This document shows positions 18,601 through 23,443 of a stretch of 42,948 nt of DNA, piece after piece. The stretch is taken from contig JAUVAR010000002.1 in NCBI GenBank assembly GCA_030591625.1, positions 1 to 42,948 of the forward strand, given 5' to 3'. The stretch is from Candidatus Zixiibacteriota bacterium. GTDB taxonomy: Bacteria; Zixibacteria; MSB-5A5; GN15; FEB-12. Position numbers and translations under genes: made by a program. The notes beneath the pieces are model-generated. The model saw only the letters and a list, made by a program, of their open reading frames with translations. It was not told where the DNA came from and ran no database searches. Numbering within the stretch: position 1 is the stretch's first letter; the number at the start of each line of letters is the position of its first letter.

Positions 18601-18713
18601 TTGGTGGACTTGTTACATCAACTGCTCTTACTCTTATTGTTATACCAGCTGTTTATCATCTTATAGCTGGACGCTCTGCAATCAGTAACAGGATAACAAC
18701 CTCCGAACAATGA
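15609..18713 (+). CDS. RND efflux permease (AcrB/CzcA superfamily), RND1
   Basis: 1034 aa with 12-TM/2-loop organisation. TM4 reads 'GMLVDNAIVVMENI' and TM11 reads 'RIRPIVMTSVTT'. The stop overlaps the next start (ATGA). Confidence 0.92.
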   Translation: MFRLARFSVKYPTTVLMMILAIGLLGYISFTRLGVDLLPDLNNPRLFIEVNAGEKPPAEMEQQYVTDLEAVAVRGSKVENVSSISRIGKALITVEYSWDADMDEAFLDLQKSIADFTQGSDADEVSVSQLDPNAVPILIATFAHPEIDDLDLLRQTAENIIQNELIRLPGVAGVDVVGSRVREVEVRTDAFTLEAYGLTLDELAGAIERTNRNMTGGSIIEMGRRYMIRGVGELTSREDLEDIIVTYKTPAVSRGLGEQLNSERVPVYLREVATVEFVLSEPENIVRSNGRQCLALEIFKEARYNTIDAAETARKRLDELHASLSGYEIDIIQDQSKFIDAAITEVEQTGLAGVLLAIMILFVFLRRIGVTAIISIAIPISVIATFNLMYFNGLSLNIMTLGGLALGAGMLVDNAIVVMENIFRHLESGKSITEAAIHGAGEVGGAITSSTLTTIVVFLPIVYLHGAAGELFREQAWTVAYSLISSLFVALIVIPMLCSRMLKDKKAKTISSVQFTTYGNFLKTVIAKKGVVAFSAAMLVLTAAFIVPMVGSEFMPQTEQGEMFVHLTLPEGTSLERTEGTVRNIEAMIGQKYSSFISKIYSKVGPTSNNSGSAVELTDDNYAVIHLVLTEAGSGATHSLVAGLDAELKNIPDAETRISLQQTALKTTLGTTTAPLVVEIKGKDLDVLQSLSEEVKLTLESIEHLTNVETSFRDGRPEINIMVDRTVASQFSLDADKVGNDLRALLSGRDAGQLQYQGDYADIKLRRPEVSLSELNSIIIEAPGGRQVRLDEIARLIPSVSTREISRNNQIRIASVSAHLTSDEAFDKTAATVRDAISKITIPPEYSFEITGEEKMRREAFGNLKFALLLAIILVYMVMAAQFESLLHPFVILLTIPLAGVGAVLILFVMGLPFNVMSFIGIIMLAGIAVNDSIILVDRINQNRRNGLALIDAIVDAGQTRIRPIVMTSVTTILALLPLTIGIGEGAALRAPMALAVIGGLVTSTALTLIVIPAVYHLIAGRSAISNRITTSEQ

Positions 18714-21700: not shown

Positions 21701-23443
21701 GCAAAAATTGGGGCACCATTTGCAATTACGGTTATTGGCGGTCTTTCAATCGGAACACTGTTCACACTCTTATTGATTCCTACTTTTTCTTATGGCATGC
21801 ACACCGCCTTGGTATGGTGGCATAAGCTATCATTAAGAATCAAACTGATTCAGTTAGTTGCGTTGATTGGAGCTTCATTTATGATTTATAATGGTGTTGA
21901 TTCAACTCTCTGGCAATTTGCGAATCTGATCGCAGTATTTGGAATTGTACCTGGCATTACATATTTCAGCATGACATCACTAAGACGTGCATCATCAAAA
22001 ATAATTCCTGAGACTGATCCTATCACCATCAAAATCCACAACGTTGTAAAGTTCTATGACGGCTTCTCTCGTTTCGTTAGAGAATGGCACAAAGCTGATA
22101 GACGCAATGAACACTTACAGGCAAGAGGAGAACGGTTGCCGGGCAGAAAGACGATTGATCAAATCTGGCAACTTCCACTTTGGCTTTTCCATCTATACTT
22201 TGCGTATATCCATGCCGAAAGTGGTTTCTGGATTCTGATTTTCGCTATCACTGCATATATCCATACTGTTTTGTTAGGCAGATTTATTCTTGGTATCTTT
22301 AAGAGTAACGATAATCATTCAATCAAAAGTGCAAAATGGTACCAACGCCTGCTCACTCTTATCGTCTGGATTGCCCCGGGTGCAAATATTGGATGGTGGC
22401 TCTTCGGTCATGATGCTATCGCTTCGGCAATTGTCTTTGGTACACCGTGGTATCTGGCTGTTCTAATATGGCGAACTTCGGAAATACTATATCGCAACAA
22501 AACCGATATCATGCGTCTTACCGGCAGGTTCAAAAGAACCCGCAAACTTTTTTATCGCATGGTAAAAGCTATTCCAATAATTGGTAAGAAGAAGATTCCG
22601 TTCCGTGCTCTTGATCAAGTATCATTGGAAATCGGAAGCGGCATGTTTGGACTTGTTGGTCCTAACGGTGCAGGTAAAACTACCTTGATGCGAGTTATAT
22701 GTGGAATCCTCGAACAATCGCAGGGTGTAGTGACCGTTAATGGACTTGATCTAAATGAGTACCGCGAAGAAATGCAGGCATTGATCGGATATCTTCCGCA
22801 GGAGTTTGGTACTTATGAAAATATGACGGCGTATCAATTCCTTGATTACCAGGCGATTCTTAAAGGCATCACCGAACCAACAAAACGCAAAGAGATTGTT
22901 GAACGTGCAATCAAATCAGTGCACCTGGGAGAAAAACGGAATACTAAGATAAAAGCATTCTCCGGTGGTATGAAACAACGCGTTGGTATTGCACAAACAT
23001 TATTGCATTTGCCTCGCATTCTTGTTGTTGATGAACCAACGGCCGGACTCGATCCACGCGAGCGAATAAGATTCCGTAATTTACTTGCCGATCTTGCTCG
23101 TGACAGAGTTGTTATTTTTTCTACTCACATAATTGAAGATATATCAAGTTCGTGTAATCGTCTCGCCGTCTTAACCGATGGAAAGGTCAGATTCCTCGGC
23201 ACACCTGTTGAAATGGTTAAGCTGACCGAAGGCTATGTATGGCAAGCAACTGTGAGTGAGGAGTTCTTCGAAACTTTCCGTACAAAAGCAAGAGTTGTGC
23301 ATCATATGCGTGATGGTGATGGAATAAAATTACGAGTACTCTCAAAAGAGAAACCACTGGAACAGGCAAAAGCTGTGACGCCGTCGCTTGAGGATTCATA
23401 CCTTTGGTTGCTCGATACTATGGAGACCAGAGATGACAACTAA
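18710..23443 (+). CDS. RND efflux permease (RND2) fused to extra TM helices and a C-terminal ABC ATPase domain (NBD2)
   Basis: 1577-aa uninterrupted ORF. aa 1-~1030 is an RND permease (TM4 'GMLLDNSVVVLES', TM11 'RLRPILITTITS'). aa ~1040-1095 holds 2 hydrophobic helices. aa 1105-1118, 'ITIKIHNVVKFYDG', is the NBD strand beta1. aa 1119-1295 is a hydrophobic insertion. From aa 1296 the NBD continues with Walker A GPNGAGKTT (22658-22684), FSGGMKQR, LVVDEPTAGLD and STH. Confidence 0.85.
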   Translation: MIAFIIRRPVLVAMIIAALCLLGIVAYDRLPVENQPSIELPMLIVVVGGARDSDPSYLERHAVVPLESAIAGLEDIESIESYISRNRTTVFVYYQQSTDVRYAYLKLQQRVKAVQQEMGNSFFFSVWKIDTEQLANRFMTLEARGAGDVDQIRNVIDRKVTAELQNIDGVANVAIYGGRERSVEILLDETAMAAHKLTSAQIRNAIASGNQDRQFLGHVTDGRRKHAVNLGSDLTSVENLGNIVLKEQGPVLLKHVAEVLDGASEETSISRVNGMESVSVSIIRERQANLLELAERTHEQIEKLNEQLKIDGIELIVKEDQAEAISKNIDTIKELALIGSILAIIILWLFLRNFALVLVVAGAIPISVLIALNFFYVYDLTINTLSLFGIAIAIGMLLDNSVVVLESIHRQIGLGKNPYDAVIIGAGEVWRPVMASTMTTVAVFLPFIFTDNFLIQLLGRHIGISIVSTLLVSLGVAFLIIPAFAYRFLSKKSDSSIADMNIIPRSNRMMQIYTLFLKSCLRFPARTSIISVVVLFMSIIICLAVSINSPTEVESEMFNLYATLPSGTTLDVADIQSVKMDERISDIAELKERAAQIEEDQITFSFELLEDYEDIDDRDLSAVKSAIINSLEDGFPRIDFNYEQPLSDSRYQGGGGGGMGGGGGDERAFGRLLGIGVAEEKVIIRGQDIGLLATVADDIQYNIDNMETVRRSRQSIASPRPGIDLVFSKTAVGYFGITPQAIIAELSNFQSEVSSGVSLQDGDEKISVILKNEELEERNSDDLRILQIPSNVGGTVPISQLARLVYTSSLSGINRINQEKEVEVTYTFEDDITGSKQLLDDARASIDDVIDDIIPPPGISIEVVHDELDLSEFYFLIFAAIVLIFMILASAFESLIQPLVMMFTIPLATVGAFWGLILTGNSIMNANALIGFIILLGVIVNNGIILIDYSRLLQKRNYRPTRALLMAGQARLRPILITTITSVLAMIPLAMGNTDYVAKIGAPFAITVIGGLSIGTLFTLLLIPTFSYGMHTALVWWHKLSLRIKLIQLVALIGASFMIYNGVDSTLWQFANLIAVFGIVPGITYFSMTSLRRASSKIIPETDPITIKIHNVVKFYDGFSRFVREWHKADRRNEHLQARGERLPGRKTIDQIWQLPLWLFHLYFAYIHAESGFWILIFAITAYIHTVLLGRFILGIFKSNDNHSIKSAKWYQRLLTLIVWIAPGANIGWWLFGHDAIASAIVFGTPWYLAVLIWRTSEILYRNKTDIMRLTGRFKRTRKLFYRMVKAIPIIGKKKIPFRALDQVSLEIGSGMFGLVGPNGAGKTTLMRVICGILEQSQGVVTVNGLDLNEYREEMQALIGYLPQEFGTYENMTAYQFLDYQAILKGITEPTKRKEIVERAIKSVHLGEKRNTKIKAFSGGMKQRVGIAQTLLHLPRILVVDEPTAGLDPRERIRFRNLLADLARDRVVIFSTHIIEDISSSCNRLAVLTDGKVRFLGTPVEMVKLTEGYVWQATVSEEFFETFRTKARVVHHMRDGDGIKLRVLSKEKPLEQAKAVTPSLEDSYLWLLDTMETRDDN

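What the first reader, a model, noticed from the sequence alone, without database searches (positions are those of the whole stretch)
18710..23443. Complete RND permease and an ABC ATPase domain on one 1577-aa polypeptide
The ORF reads without interruption through three parts. The first is a full 12-TM AcrB-like RND permease (aa 1-~1030) with two large periplasmic loops, TM4 'GMLLDNSVVVLES' and TM11 'RLRPILITT'. The second is two extra hydrophobic helices (aa ~1040-1095). The third is a complete ABC nucleotide-binding domain with Walker A at nt 22658-22684, signature FSGGMKQR, Walker B LVVDEPTAGLD and H-loop STH. RND pumps use the proton-motive force and ABC domains hydrolyse ATP. I know of no characterised transporter that carries both engines in one chain. 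The added helices number 2 + 4, an even count, so the NBD would lie in the cytoplasm like the RND C-terminus. That consistent topology argues against an accidental read-through artefact.
Basis: partly seen in the sequence, partly recalled or inferred. Interest (0 to 1): 0.9.

Follow-up and report, generated by a model that had tools for sequence, protein, structure and literature searches.

The report
RND efflux pump fused to ABC ATPase
One 1577-residue protein joins a complete proton-driven RND efflux permease to a working-looking ATP-driven ABC motor; the fusion is real, is conserved in many uncultured bacterial phyla, and I found no description of it, so it may be an efflux machine that uses two energy sources.

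Summary
ORF 18710-23443 (+) is uninterrupted and carries a full RND permease (Pfam ACR_tran, 4e-157) and an ABC nucleotide-binding domain, or NBD (ABC_tran, 2.5e-28).

It is not an assembly artefact. The RND-linker-NBD junction is in one frame in every independent locus examined, at least 15. These include a closed 3.44-Mb Zixibacteria genome (1568 aa) and 4.2-4.5-Mb contigs (1560 aa). A search with the linker alone found 76 clusters at 50% identity. About 18 are full-length proteins of 1550-1585 aa with the linker at the same position. All ATPase motifs are invariant, and the NBD is the best-conserved part of the protein.

The anatomy needs three refinements:
- The NBD starts at aa 1105 (beta1/A-loop) and is split by a conserved 174-aa, four-helix membrane insertion.
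- The gene always follows a second, unfused RND paralogue (28% identity).
- It is always followed, with overlapping stop and start, by an unannotated 6-TM protein whose predicted fold matches ABC-2 (type V) exporter permeases.

Best reading: an ABC-2 exporter tethered to a two-paralogue tripartite RND pump, acting as a two-stage, two-energy relay. The mechanism is inferred, not shown. I found no literature on this architecture.

The parts
13008..14516 (+). Outer-membrane factor (TolC-like), first gene of the conserved efflux core
   Evidence: Pfam OEP 6.2e-50. NCBIfam TolC/NodT subfamilies. Found at the same position in L002, L009-L013, L015, L016, L019 and L022.
14529..15587 (+). Periplasmic adaptor (membrane-fusion protein)
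   Evidence: Pfam HlyD_D23/HlyD_3. NCBIfam RND_mfp 1.8e-50, above its cutoff.
15609..18713 (+). RND1: canonical unfused RND permease, 1034 aa. Its TGA stop overlaps the ATG of the fusion gene (ATGA at 18710-18713).
   Evidence: ACR_tran 1.2e-218. Best solved relative is MdtB, 9lyq_B. 30% identical to the RND part of the fusion in the window pair and 26-29% across loci. Always adjacent to the fusion gene. Overlap shown.
18710..23443 (+). RND2::ABC fusion gene, 1577 aa (whole ORF)
18710..21799 (+). RND permease module (aa 1-1030). It has 12 TM helices and two periplasmic loops. TM4 Asp is D399, TM10 reads VNN, and TM11 reads RLRPI.
   Evidence: Pfam and NCBIfam coverage. Hydropathy. TM4 Asp and the first Arg of the TM11 R-x-R-P motif are invariant in 16 full-length homologues; the second Arg is Lys in P0150. 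Best solved relative is MdtB.
21800..21994 (+). Two extra TM helices (TM13-14, aa 1031-1095) that return the chain to the cytoplasm
   Evidence: Hydropathy. AF2 helices at model residues 13-33 and 37-65. Loop charges.
22010..22063 (+). First strand and A-loop of the ABC domain (aa 1101-1118, ITIKIHNVVKFYDG)
   Evidence: AF2 strand at model residues 78-87. The motif is conserved in 16 homologues. The splice test extends NBD profile matches to profile position 1-2 and adds 3-8 bits.
22064..22585 (+). 174-aa insertion inside the NBD (aa 1119-1292): an amphipathic helix, four TM helices, and a Lys/Arg-rich return segment
   Evidence: No Pfam family matches. Conserved only in this family: 76 clusters.
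22586..23224 (+). ABC ATPase core (aa 1293-1505): Walker A K1323 (nt 22658-22684), Q-loop, signature, Walker B E1442, D-loop, H-loop H1473
   Evidence: Foldseek best hits are ABC-2-type NBDs: 4yer, NosF, ABCA.
23225..23440 (+). C-terminal beta-rich domain after the NBD (aa 1506-1577), of the kind seen in TM_1403, NosF and the ABCA regulatory domain
   Evidence: AF2 strands at model residues 481-515. Foldseek alignments of 273-300 columns to 4yer and 7osf. The stand-alone paralogue shares this domain.
23433..24170 (+). 245-aa, 6-TM protein. Its ATG overlaps the end of the fusion gene by 11 nt. Probable ABC-2 (type V) permease partner, from an unannotated family.
   Evidence: No Pfam or NCBIfam match. 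More than 1243 clusters at 90% identity, none carrying a name other than 'hypothetical protein' among those listed. AF2 pLDDT 88. About 30 top Foldseek hits are type V exporter TMDs: PmtD, ABCG2/G25/G5G8, Wzm, ABCA1/7, with TM about 0.5. Adjacent in every locus.
9615..12983 (+). 1122-aa protein directly upstream of the OMF gene: N-terminal 6-TM ABC-2-like membrane domain, an M1-peptidase-like region without HExxH, and Golvesin_C. Its relation to the fusion is unresolved.
   Evidence: Pfam. Hydropathy and motif scan. A Golvesin_C protein sits at the same position in L002 and L009-L011, and a big1122 homologue in L022.
8679..9590 (+). Stand-alone ABC-2-type ATPase, 46% identical to the fused NBD. 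Probably serves the 1122-aa protein.
   Evidence: Unrelated stand-alone ATPases are equally similar.

Best explanation
This is a genuine, ancient and widespread gene fusion. It tethers the ATPase of an ABC-2 (type V) exporter to one of the two RND paralogues of a tripartite efflux pump (outer-membrane factor, adaptor, RND).

Shown:
- The chain runs RND2 (12 TM), then two extra TM helices, then NBD strand 1, then a four-TM insertion, then the rest of the NBD, then a C-terminal domain.
- Every ATPase catalytic motif is under strong purifying selection.
- The RND part keeps its TM4 Asp and TM11 Arg.
- The next gene, apparently translationally coupled, encodes a 6-TM protein with an ABC-2-permease-like predicted fold.

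Inferred:
- The fused NBD and the downstream permease form an ATP-driven exporter or flippase. It moves the substrate from the cytoplasm or inner leaflet to the periplasmic face.
- There the proton-driven RND1/RND2 trimer captures the substrate and expels it through the adaptor and outer-membrane channel. This would be a hard-wired version of the two-stage efflux that separate pumps are known to perform.
- A (RND1)1(RND2)2 heterotrimer, by analogy with MdtB2C, would supply exactly the two NBDs a canonical ABC dimer needs. This would resolve the mismatch between a trimeric RND and a dimeric ABC ATPase.

The substrate is unknown.
For: Reality and conservation of the fusion:
- The ORF is intact and both domains score strongly.
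- 76 clusters contain the family-specific linker. About 18 full-length representatives of 1550-1585 aa have it at about residues 1025-1300.
- Intact 1560-aa and 1568-aa genes occur in 4.2-4.5-Mb contigs and in closed genome CP070824.1.
- Short-read metagenome contigs L016, L017, L019, L020 and L022 have RND, linker and NBD in one frame.

Active ATPase:
- Walker A and B, Q-loop, signature, D-loop and H-loop are invariant.
- The NBD is the most conserved region: 44-69% identity, against 30-56% for the RND part and 18-38% for the linker.

Insertion inside the NBD: AF2 secondary structure and the splice test.

Topology: loop charges.

ABC-2 identity:
- NBD models GldA and DrrA are the best NBD models, and Foldseek finds ABC-2 NBDs with a C-terminal domain.
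- The downstream 6-TM protein is a confident model (pLDDT 88) whose top 30 or so structural neighbours are all type V TMDs.
- ATPase-then-permease is the usual gene order for ABC-2 systems (established knowledge).
- The downstream start codon overlaps the fusion gene's stop, and a GGAG lies upstream of it.

RND competence: the TM4 Asp is invariant and the TM11 R-x-R-P motif nearly so. Adaptor and OMF genes are in the operon.

Two-paralogue design: RND1 and RND2 are about 28% identical, each is conserved among its own orthologues, and they are always adjacent. Both hit MdtB best. The MdtB2C heterotrimer precedent is in PMC7015380.

Two-stage efflux precedent: PMC4338810.
Against: - There is no experimental or expression data.
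- The structural match of the downstream protein to ABC-2 permeases is moderate (TM 0.41-0.58, Foldseek E 0.085-1).
- That protein has no sequence-level support. It has no Pfam or NCBIfam hit, no PDB profile hit, and no hhalign match to the ABC-2-like domain of the neighbouring 1122-aa protein.
- The 1:2 stoichiometry is pure analogy.
- The AcrB TM10 Lys position is Asn in both RND1 and RND2. The proton-relay chemistry of this clade therefore differs from the AcrB paradigm, and proton coupling is assumed, not shown.
- The role of the six extra helices is unexplained by this model.
- The operon also holds a second ABC-2-like system (8679-12983) whose relation to the fusion is unknown.
Confidence: 0.5

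Rival explanations
1. ATP-powered or ATP-gated RND. The NBDs do not run a separate exporter. Instead they transmit ATP-dependent movements through the six extra TM helices into the RND transmembrane domain. This would either drive RND2's conformational cycle (mechanotransmission in the manner of MacB) or gate the pump according to the cell's energy state.
For: - The NBD is covalently joined to RND TM12 through membrane helices, and its first hairpin carries a conserved 4-TM insertion found only in this family. That is an odd investment if the NBD only needed to dock on a separate permease.
- The AcrB-type TM10 Lys is absent.
- The NBD is more conserved than the RND part.
Against: - The TM4 Asp and TM11 Arg are as conserved in RND2 as in the unfused RND1. 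There is no sign that RND2 specifically lost proton coupling.
- A conserved ABC-2-like permease gene overlaps the 3' end of the fusion gene and accounts for the NBD's normal partner.
- I know of no precedent for an ATP-driven RND cycle.
Confidence: 0.2
2. Co-assembly fusion only. Two functionally independent transporters, an RND pump and an ABC-2 exporter with different substrates or steps, became fused. The fusion fixes co-expression, co-localisation or stoichiometry, and there is no substrate hand-over.
For: - Gene fusions of operon neighbours are common. ATPase-then-permease directly after the RND genes is what a lost stop codon would produce.
- Each module is complete in itself.
Against: - The fusion, the extra helices and the whole gene order are retained across very distant phyla at only 30-56% identity in the RND part.
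- The search with the linker returned no clearly complete stand-alone version. This argues for selection on the physical linkage.
Confidence: 0.2
3. The fused NBD pairs with the stand-alone ATPase encoded at 8679-9590 as a heterodimeric NBD pair. It would then serve the 1122-aa ABC-2-like membrane protein, linking that system to the RND pump. The heterotrimer could then be (RND1)2(RND2)1.
For: - The stand-alone ATPase is 46% identical to the fused NBD over 272 aa, including the C-terminal domain.
- It lies in the same gene string as the Golvesin_C protein that is conserved upstream of the OMF gene.
Against: - Stand-alone ATPases from unrelated loci are equally similar, at 40-49%, so there is no special relationship.
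- The stand-alone ATPase has its own adjacent membrane partner.
- I could not see whether it is conserved upstream in other loci, because the flanks were too short.
Confidence: 0.08
4. Artefact: a lost stop codon, a frameshift or a chimeric assembly joined separate RND and ABC genes in this contig.
For: None found. In some relatives the RND part is broken into pieces.
Against: - Those breaks are frameshifts inside the RND part of long-read assemblies, or a run of N in a scaffold. They are never at the junction.
- The junction is in one frame in at least 15 independent loci from different technologies and phyla.
- The linker itself is conserved.
- GC content is uniform.
Confidence: 0.01

Closest known systems
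MdtABC / MuxABC-OpmB (tripartite RND pumps with two RND paralogues; MdtB2C heterotrimer)
   Same: Two adjacent, anciently diverged RND genes sit in one operon with a single adaptor. MdtB is the best solved-structure relative of both RND1 and RND2 (PMC7015380).
   Different: Neither MdtB nor MdtC carries an ABC domain or extra helices. The stoichiometry here is untested. Scores are far below the NCBIfam MdtB and MdtC cutoffs. The lineage is different (Zixibacteria and the FCB group, not Proteobacteria).
ABC-2 / type V exporters with separate ATPase and 6-TM permease (DrrAB, GldAFG, NodIJ, NosDFY, PmtCD, YbhFSR, Wzm-Wzt)
   Same: The NBD subfamily matches (GldA and DrrA models are the best NBD models). 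The NBD has a C-terminal domain as in NosF and TM_1403. A permease of about 240 aa and 6 TM is encoded immediately downstream, with a type V-like predicted fold.
   Different: The NBD is fused to an RND permease and split by a 4-TM insertion. The permease has no detectable sequence similarity to ABC2_membrane families. NBD scores are below the GldA and DrrA cutoffs.
MacAB-TolC (ATP-driven tripartite efflux pump)
   Same: An ABC ATPase would operate within an OMF-adaptor-inner-membrane-transporter envelope-spanning system.
   Different: MacB has an N-terminal NBD, four TM helices and a periplasmic domain (type VII), and it has no RND component. Here the periplasmic machinery is a full RND porter domain.
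Two-stage drug efflux by cooperating separate pumps (inner-membrane transporter to the periplasm, then an RND pump across the outer membrane)
   Same: This is the proposed logic of the best explanation. One transporter delivers the substrate to the periplasmic side and an RND pump removes it (PMC4338810).
   Different: In known cases the two transporters are separate proteins with no physical link. Here they would be covalently tethered.
Sec holotranslocon (SecA ATPase + SecYEG + SecDF)
   Same: A proton-driven member of the RND superfamily (SecDF) and an ATPase act on one translocation process (established knowledge; SecDF described in PMC8277102).
   Different: The proteins are separate, SecA is not an ABC ATPase, and the cargo is protein. 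There is no sequence relationship beyond the RND superfamily.

Membership tests
RND permease (HAE-type, Pfam ACR_tran / NCBIfam RND_permease_2) | Full-length match: 12 TM helices with two large periplasmic loops | tested here: met
   ACR_tran 4e-157. NF033617 covers aa 4-1025 against profile positions 3-1002 of 1009. Hydropathy agrees. However, 474 bits is below NCBIfam's 1250-bit cutoff for the named multidrug subfamily.
RND permease (AcrB-type proton relay) | TM4 acidic residue(s), TM10 Lys, TM11 Arg | tested here: inconclusive
   A single TM4 Asp (D399, with Asn next to it) and the TM11 Arg are invariant. The position that aligns with AcrB K940 (alignment to the AcrB TM10 sequence recalled from memory) is Asn, in RND2 and equally in unfused RND1. 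The relay is a variant of the paradigm, so proton coupling is assumed.
Tripartite RND efflux system | Adaptor (MFP) and outer-membrane factor genes in the same operon | tested here: met
   OEP and RND_mfp genes lie directly upstream, and this is conserved in relatives.
ABC ATPase (Pfam ABC_tran) | A-loop, Walker A, Q-loop, signature LSGGQ-like, Walker B with catalytic Glu, D-loop, H-loop | tested here: met
   All are present and invariant in 16 full-length homologues. The A-loop aromatic lies on strand 1, upstream of the insertion.
GldA / DrrA equivalogs (NCBIfam TIGR03522, TIGR01188) | Score above the curated cutoff | tested here: not met
   174 bits against a cutoff of 402.6, and 162.7 against 312.45. 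The NBD belongs to the same broad ABC-2 subfamily but is not GldA or DrrA.
ABC-2 / type V exporter | Partner permease of about 6 TM helices with the type V fold | tested here: inconclusive
   The downstream 245-aa protein has 6 TM helices. The AF2 model is confident and its top structural neighbours are all type V TMDs, but TM is about 0.5 and E is at best 0.085. There is no sequence-level match.
ABC-2 / type V exporter | Physical NBD-permease complex and NBD dimer | not testable with these tools
   This needs complex structure prediction or biochemistry.
MdtB2C-like RND heterotrimer | Two RND paralogues encoded side by side | tested here: met
   RND1 and RND2 are about 28% identical and adjacent in every locus with enough upstream sequence.
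MdtB2C-like RND heterotrimer | Mixed trimer of fixed stoichiometry | not testable with these tools
   Inference only.
MacB-type (type VII) tripartite ABC pump | N-terminal NBD, four TM helices, periplasmic domain between TM1 and TM2 | tested here: not met
   The NBD is C-terminal, and the periplasmic domains are RND porter domains.

The most novel reading that the evidence does not exclude
ATP hydrolysis and proton flux are mechanically coupled within one machine. The NBD dimer would act through the family-specific six extra helices to drive or license the conformational cycle of the RND trimer. This would be an efflux pump that integrates two energy currencies, which is not known for any transporter class.
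Probability: 0.2. Interest if true: 0.95.

Novelty: new variant of a known kind. Interest (0 to 1): 0.78.

Why it matters
RND pumps (proton-driven trimers) and ABC transporters (ATP-driven dimers) are treated as alternative engines of Gram-negative efflux. The 2021 comprehensive review lists ABC, RND and MFS as separate classes of inner-membrane component.

A conserved protein that carries both raises three concrete, testable questions:
- How are a three-fold and a two-fold machine combined?
- Is substrate handed from an ATP-driven step at the inner membrane to a proton-driven step across the outer membrane?
- What does a membrane insertion inside an NBD do?

The work also defines two unannotated families. 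One is the 4-TM NBD insertion and linker. The other is a permease family of more than 1200 clusters that are all labelled 'hypothetical'.

Finally, it exposes an annotation gap. Databases call these genes either 'RND permease' or 'ABC ATPase', never both.

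Tried and rejected
1. Genome-contig scan with a single protein. The back-translated patterns were too specific, and it returned only generic ABC ATPases (L003-L008). The scan was wasted.

2. Truncated-looking hits of 1010 aa or less. I first suspected real half-RND::ABC genes. I rejected this for three reasons:
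- The window's own 1577-aa protein is in the collection but was not listed, so that search appears not to list long proteins.
- The long-contig examples are frameshifted long-read assemblies or a scaffold gap.
- The representative library does hold proteins of 1550-1585 aa.

3. RND2 lost its proton relay and is ATP-driven. I rejected this as a sequence-based claim:
- RND1 and RND2 share the same TM4 D, TM10 N and TM11 R pattern.
- The extra TM10 Asp of RND1 is not conserved, being Asn in L011.

4. Sequence-level link between the 245-aa protein and known ABC-2 permeases, or the linker helices. I found none:
- profile against PDB sequences
- hhalign against the ABC-2-like N-terminus of the 1122-aa protein
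- hhalign against the linker alignment

5. A special relationship between the fused NBD and the neighbouring stand-alone ATPase (46% identity). Rejected, because unrelated stand-alone ATPases are equally close.

6. Functional linkage to the downstream Tricorn/amidohydrolase and PmbA/TldD genes. These are shared only with the Zixibacteria genome L015, not with other loci such as L011 and L012.

7. Literature. Nine searches and one review check found no description of an RND-ABC fusion. Subscription journals are not covered.

8. Possible stand-alone '2TM + NBD' proteins (P0154 at 526 aa, P0174 at 451 aa). I could not tell them from fragments, because no context look-up is allowed for those ids.

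Full report
**1. Observation**

ORF 18710..23443 (+) starts with ATG and reads 1577 codons without a stop.
- Pfam finds ACR_tran (4e-157) and ABC_tran (2.5e-28, aa 1301-1445) on the same chain.
- NCBIfam aligns RND_permease_2 over aa 4-1025, and GldA/DrrA-type ABC-2 ATPase models over aa 1298-1514.
- GC content is flat across the junction.
- The full protein is a called gene in the NCBI-derived collection, and the window is the entire 42,948-bp contig.

**2. It is not an artefact**

A search with aa 1001-1577 returned 120 top hits. All were 47-59% identical over at least 92% of the query, and most carried both PF00873 and PF00005. They came from MAGs of these groups:
- Zixibacteria
- Aminicenantes
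- KSB1
- Krumholzibacteria
- Latescibacterota
- Bacteroidales, Prolixibacteraceae and Draconibacterium
- Spirochaetales

Those hits are all 1010 aa or shorter. The search did not list the window's own protein, so it appears not to list long proteins.

The long-contig examples turned out to be C-terminal pieces of genes broken inside the RND part. The breaks are frameshifts in long-read assemblies, or a run of N in a scaffold. None is at the RND/ABC junction.

A phmmer search with only the family-specific linker (aa 1030-1300) against 1.84 billion cluster representatives found 76 clusters, 41 of them at E<=1e-10. About 18 are full-length proteins of 1550-1585 aa with the linker at about residues 1025-1300.

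Intact genes occur in the following:
- 1560 aa, in contigs of 4.2 and 4.5 Mb
- 1568 aa, in the closed 3.44-Mb Zixibacteria genome CP070824.1, which is syntenic with the window on both sides
- short-read metagenome contigs L016, L017, L019, L020 and L022, which carry RND, linker and NBD in a single frame

**3. Anatomy, refined**

(a) The RND module is aa 1-1030.

(b) Two extra TM helices follow (aa about 1041-1091).

(c) A beta strand, ITIKIHNVVKFYDG (aa 1105-1118), is conserved in all 16 full-length homologues as the 'L-x-K-I-Y' A-loop strand of ABC ATPases.

(d) A 174-aa segment (aa 1119-1292) follows. It has a conserved 'SRFxREW' helix, four TM helices and a very basic return segment.

(e) The chain then continues with strand 2, Walker A and the rest of the NBD. 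A beta-rich C-terminal domain (aa about 1506-1577) ends the protein.

The AF2 model of aa 1030-1577 (46-sequence alignment, mean pLDDT 82) shows exactly this order of elements.

I tested the insertion idea by splicing aa 1101-1118 directly onto aa 1293-1577.
- Profile matches then start at profile position 1-2 instead of 15-17. This holds for GldA, LptB, FtsE, ECF and NodI.
- Scores rise by 3-8 bits.
- The four helices are therefore an insertion within the NBD's first hairpin, not a spacer in front of it.

Loop charges obey the positive-inside rule. Predicted cytoplasmic loops carry 3, 7, 3 and 13 Lys+Arg, and predicted periplasmic loops carry 0, 0 and 0.

No Pfam family covers the linker or the insertion.

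**4. Selection**

Across 15 homologues, identity to the window protein is as follows:

| Region | Identity |
|---|---|
| RND part | 30-56% |
| Linker | 18-38% |
| NBD | 44-69% |

Walker A, the Q-loop, SGGM(K/R)QR, VVDEPT, GLD and STH are invariant. The ATPase is under the strongest constraint of the whole protein.

In the RND part, the TM4 Asp (D399) and the first Arg of the TM11 R-x-R-P motif are invariant; the second Arg is Lys in one homologue (P0150). The position that aligns with AcrB K940 is Asn. That alignment uses the AcrB TM10 sequence recalled from memory.

The unfused neighbour RND1 has the same pattern. I therefore see no sequence evidence that the fused paralogue specifically gave up proton coupling. 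The relay of this clade does differ from the AcrB paradigm.

**5. Context**

The conserved gene string is: a large Golvesin_C protein, OMF, adaptor, RND1, RND2::ABC, then a membrane protein of 234-250 aa.

RND1 and RND2:
- RND1's TGA stop overlaps the fusion gene's ATG.
- RND1 and RND2 are about 28% identical (30% in the window pair). Orthologues of each share 48-70% identity, so they are ancient paralogues kept together.
- Both have MdtB as their best solved relative. MdtB belongs to the one well-known heterotrimeric RND pump, MdtB2C (PMC7015380).

The downstream gene:
- It starts at ATG 23433, 11 nt before the fusion gene's TAA stop, with GGAG upstream.
- Its 245-aa product has six hydrophobic helices.
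- It has no Pfam, NCBIfam or PDB-sequence match.
- It has more than 1243 relatives at 90% clustering; those that carry a name are all labelled 'hypothetical protein'.
- The AF2 model is confident (pLDDT 88, pTM 0.85).
- Its roughly 30 best Foldseek neighbours in the PDB are all TMDs of type V (ABC-2) exporters: PmtD, ABCG2, ABCG25, ABCG5/G8, ABCG1, Wzm, ABCA1 and ABCA7. The scores are moderate (TM about 0.5, E 0.085-1).

The NBD model matches ABC-2 ATPases that carry a C-terminal domain: TM_1403, NosF, and ABCA NBD plus regulatory domain. ATPase-then-permease is the standard ABC-2 gene order (established knowledge).

**6. Mechanism**

Shown:
- one chain with a complete RND permease and a catalytically intact, strongly conserved ABC-2-type ATPase
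- an obligatory RND paralogue upstream
- an apparently translationally coupled ABC-2-like permease downstream
- adaptor and OMF genes in the operon

Inferred, as the best explanation (confidence about 0.5):
- The fused NBDs and the 245-aa protein form an ATP-driven exporter or flippase. It brings the substrate to the periplasmic face.
- The proton-driven RND trimer takes the substrate from there and expels it through the adaptor and OMF.
- This would be a covalently wired form of the two-stage efflux known for separate pumps (PMC4338810).
- A (RND1)1(RND2)2 trimer would give exactly two NBDs.

Rivals:
- ATP directly drives or gates the RND cycle through the six extra helices (0.2).
- The fusion serves only co-assembly of independent transporters (0.2).
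- The NBD heterodimerises with the stand-alone ATPase at 8679-9590 (0.08). That ATPase is 46% identical, but it is no closer than unrelated stand-alone ATPases.
- Artefact (about 0.01).

The substrate is unknown. The flanking peptidase-like genes are not conserved outside Zixibacteria.

**7. Comparison and novelty**

The system works like a combination of three things: an MdtABC-type two-paralogue RND pump, an ABC-2 exporter, and, in its logic, cooperative two-stage efflux or the SecA/SecDF pairing of ATP and proton energy.

It is a member of the RND and ABC superfamilies by domain tests. It falls below the curated cutoffs for every named equivalog: MdtB, MdtC, AcrB, GldA and DrrA. It is not MacB-like.

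Nine full-text searches and the 2021 Chem Rev review of tripartite systems gave no description of an RND-ABC fusion. Subscription literature and databases such as TCDB could not be checked. Sources name these genes either 'efflux RND transporter permease subunit' or 'ABC-type multidrug transport system ATPase subunit'.

I class it as a new variant of known kinds: a new, widespread architecture built from known modules. It comes with two new unannotated elements, the NBD membrane insertion and the permease family. It would become categorically new if ATP and proton energy prove to be mechanically coupled.

**8. Limits**
- All relatives are from uncultured organisms.
- There is no transcript, protein or functional evidence.
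- Model coordinates could not be inspected. The insertion rests on secondary structure plus the splice test.
- The permease assignment rests on a moderate fold match plus gene context.

Noticed in passing
window 20663-20704 (aa 652-665 of the fusion protein): A glycine run, QGGGGGGMGGGGGD, lies in the periplasmic part of RND2. Most of the full-length homologues also have Gly-rich sequence at about this place (for example 'RGGGRGGGGGGFGNSS' and 'GGAGGGGRRRGASG'), whereas RND1 has none. It may be a flexible loop specific to the fused paralogue.
   Followed up: partly
window 9615-12983 (+): This 1122-aa protein has an N-terminal 6-TM ABC-2-like membrane domain, a weak M1-peptidase-like region with no HExxH motif (so probably not catalytic), and a C-terminal Golvesin_C domain. 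It has no NCBIfam match. A Golvesin_C protein or big1122 homologue precedes the OMF gene in L002, L009, L010, L011 and L022 too. It may belong to the same system.
   Followed up: partly
window 8679-9590 (+): A stand-alone ABC-2-type ATPase is 46% identical to the fused NBD, including the C-terminal domain. The gene string therefore encodes two ABC-2-like modules plus the RND pump.
   Followed up: partly
window 24254-27580 (-), stop at 26159-26161: An in-frame TAA separates a PD40/DPPIV_N ORF (473 aa) from an amidohydrolase ORF (632 aa). In the syntenic Zixibacteria genome (L015) the same region is a single 1107-aa Tricorn-like/amidohydrolase gene. This could be a nonsense mutation, a sequencing error or a genuine split.
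   Followed up: partly
window 1425-2729 (-), 5385-6650 (-), 37102-38112 (-), with 3731-5385 (-): Three multihaem cytochromes c (Paired_CXXCH_1, MtrC/MtrF-like domains) lie next to TPR proteins and an AhpC/redoxin-TPR fusion. This suggests extracellular or periplasmic electron transfer in this organism.
   Followed up: no
window 27790-30696 (-): A PmbA/TldD metallopeptidase pair lies next to the Tricorn-like gene. One PmbA/TldD gene lies at the same place in L015, but not in non-Zixibacteria loci.
   Followed up: no
search behaviour: The word-indexed homologue search listed no protein longer than 1010 aa and did not list the window's own 1577-aa protein, although that protein is in the collection. 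This makes long fusion proteins look 'partial' in that tool's output.
   Followed up: yes
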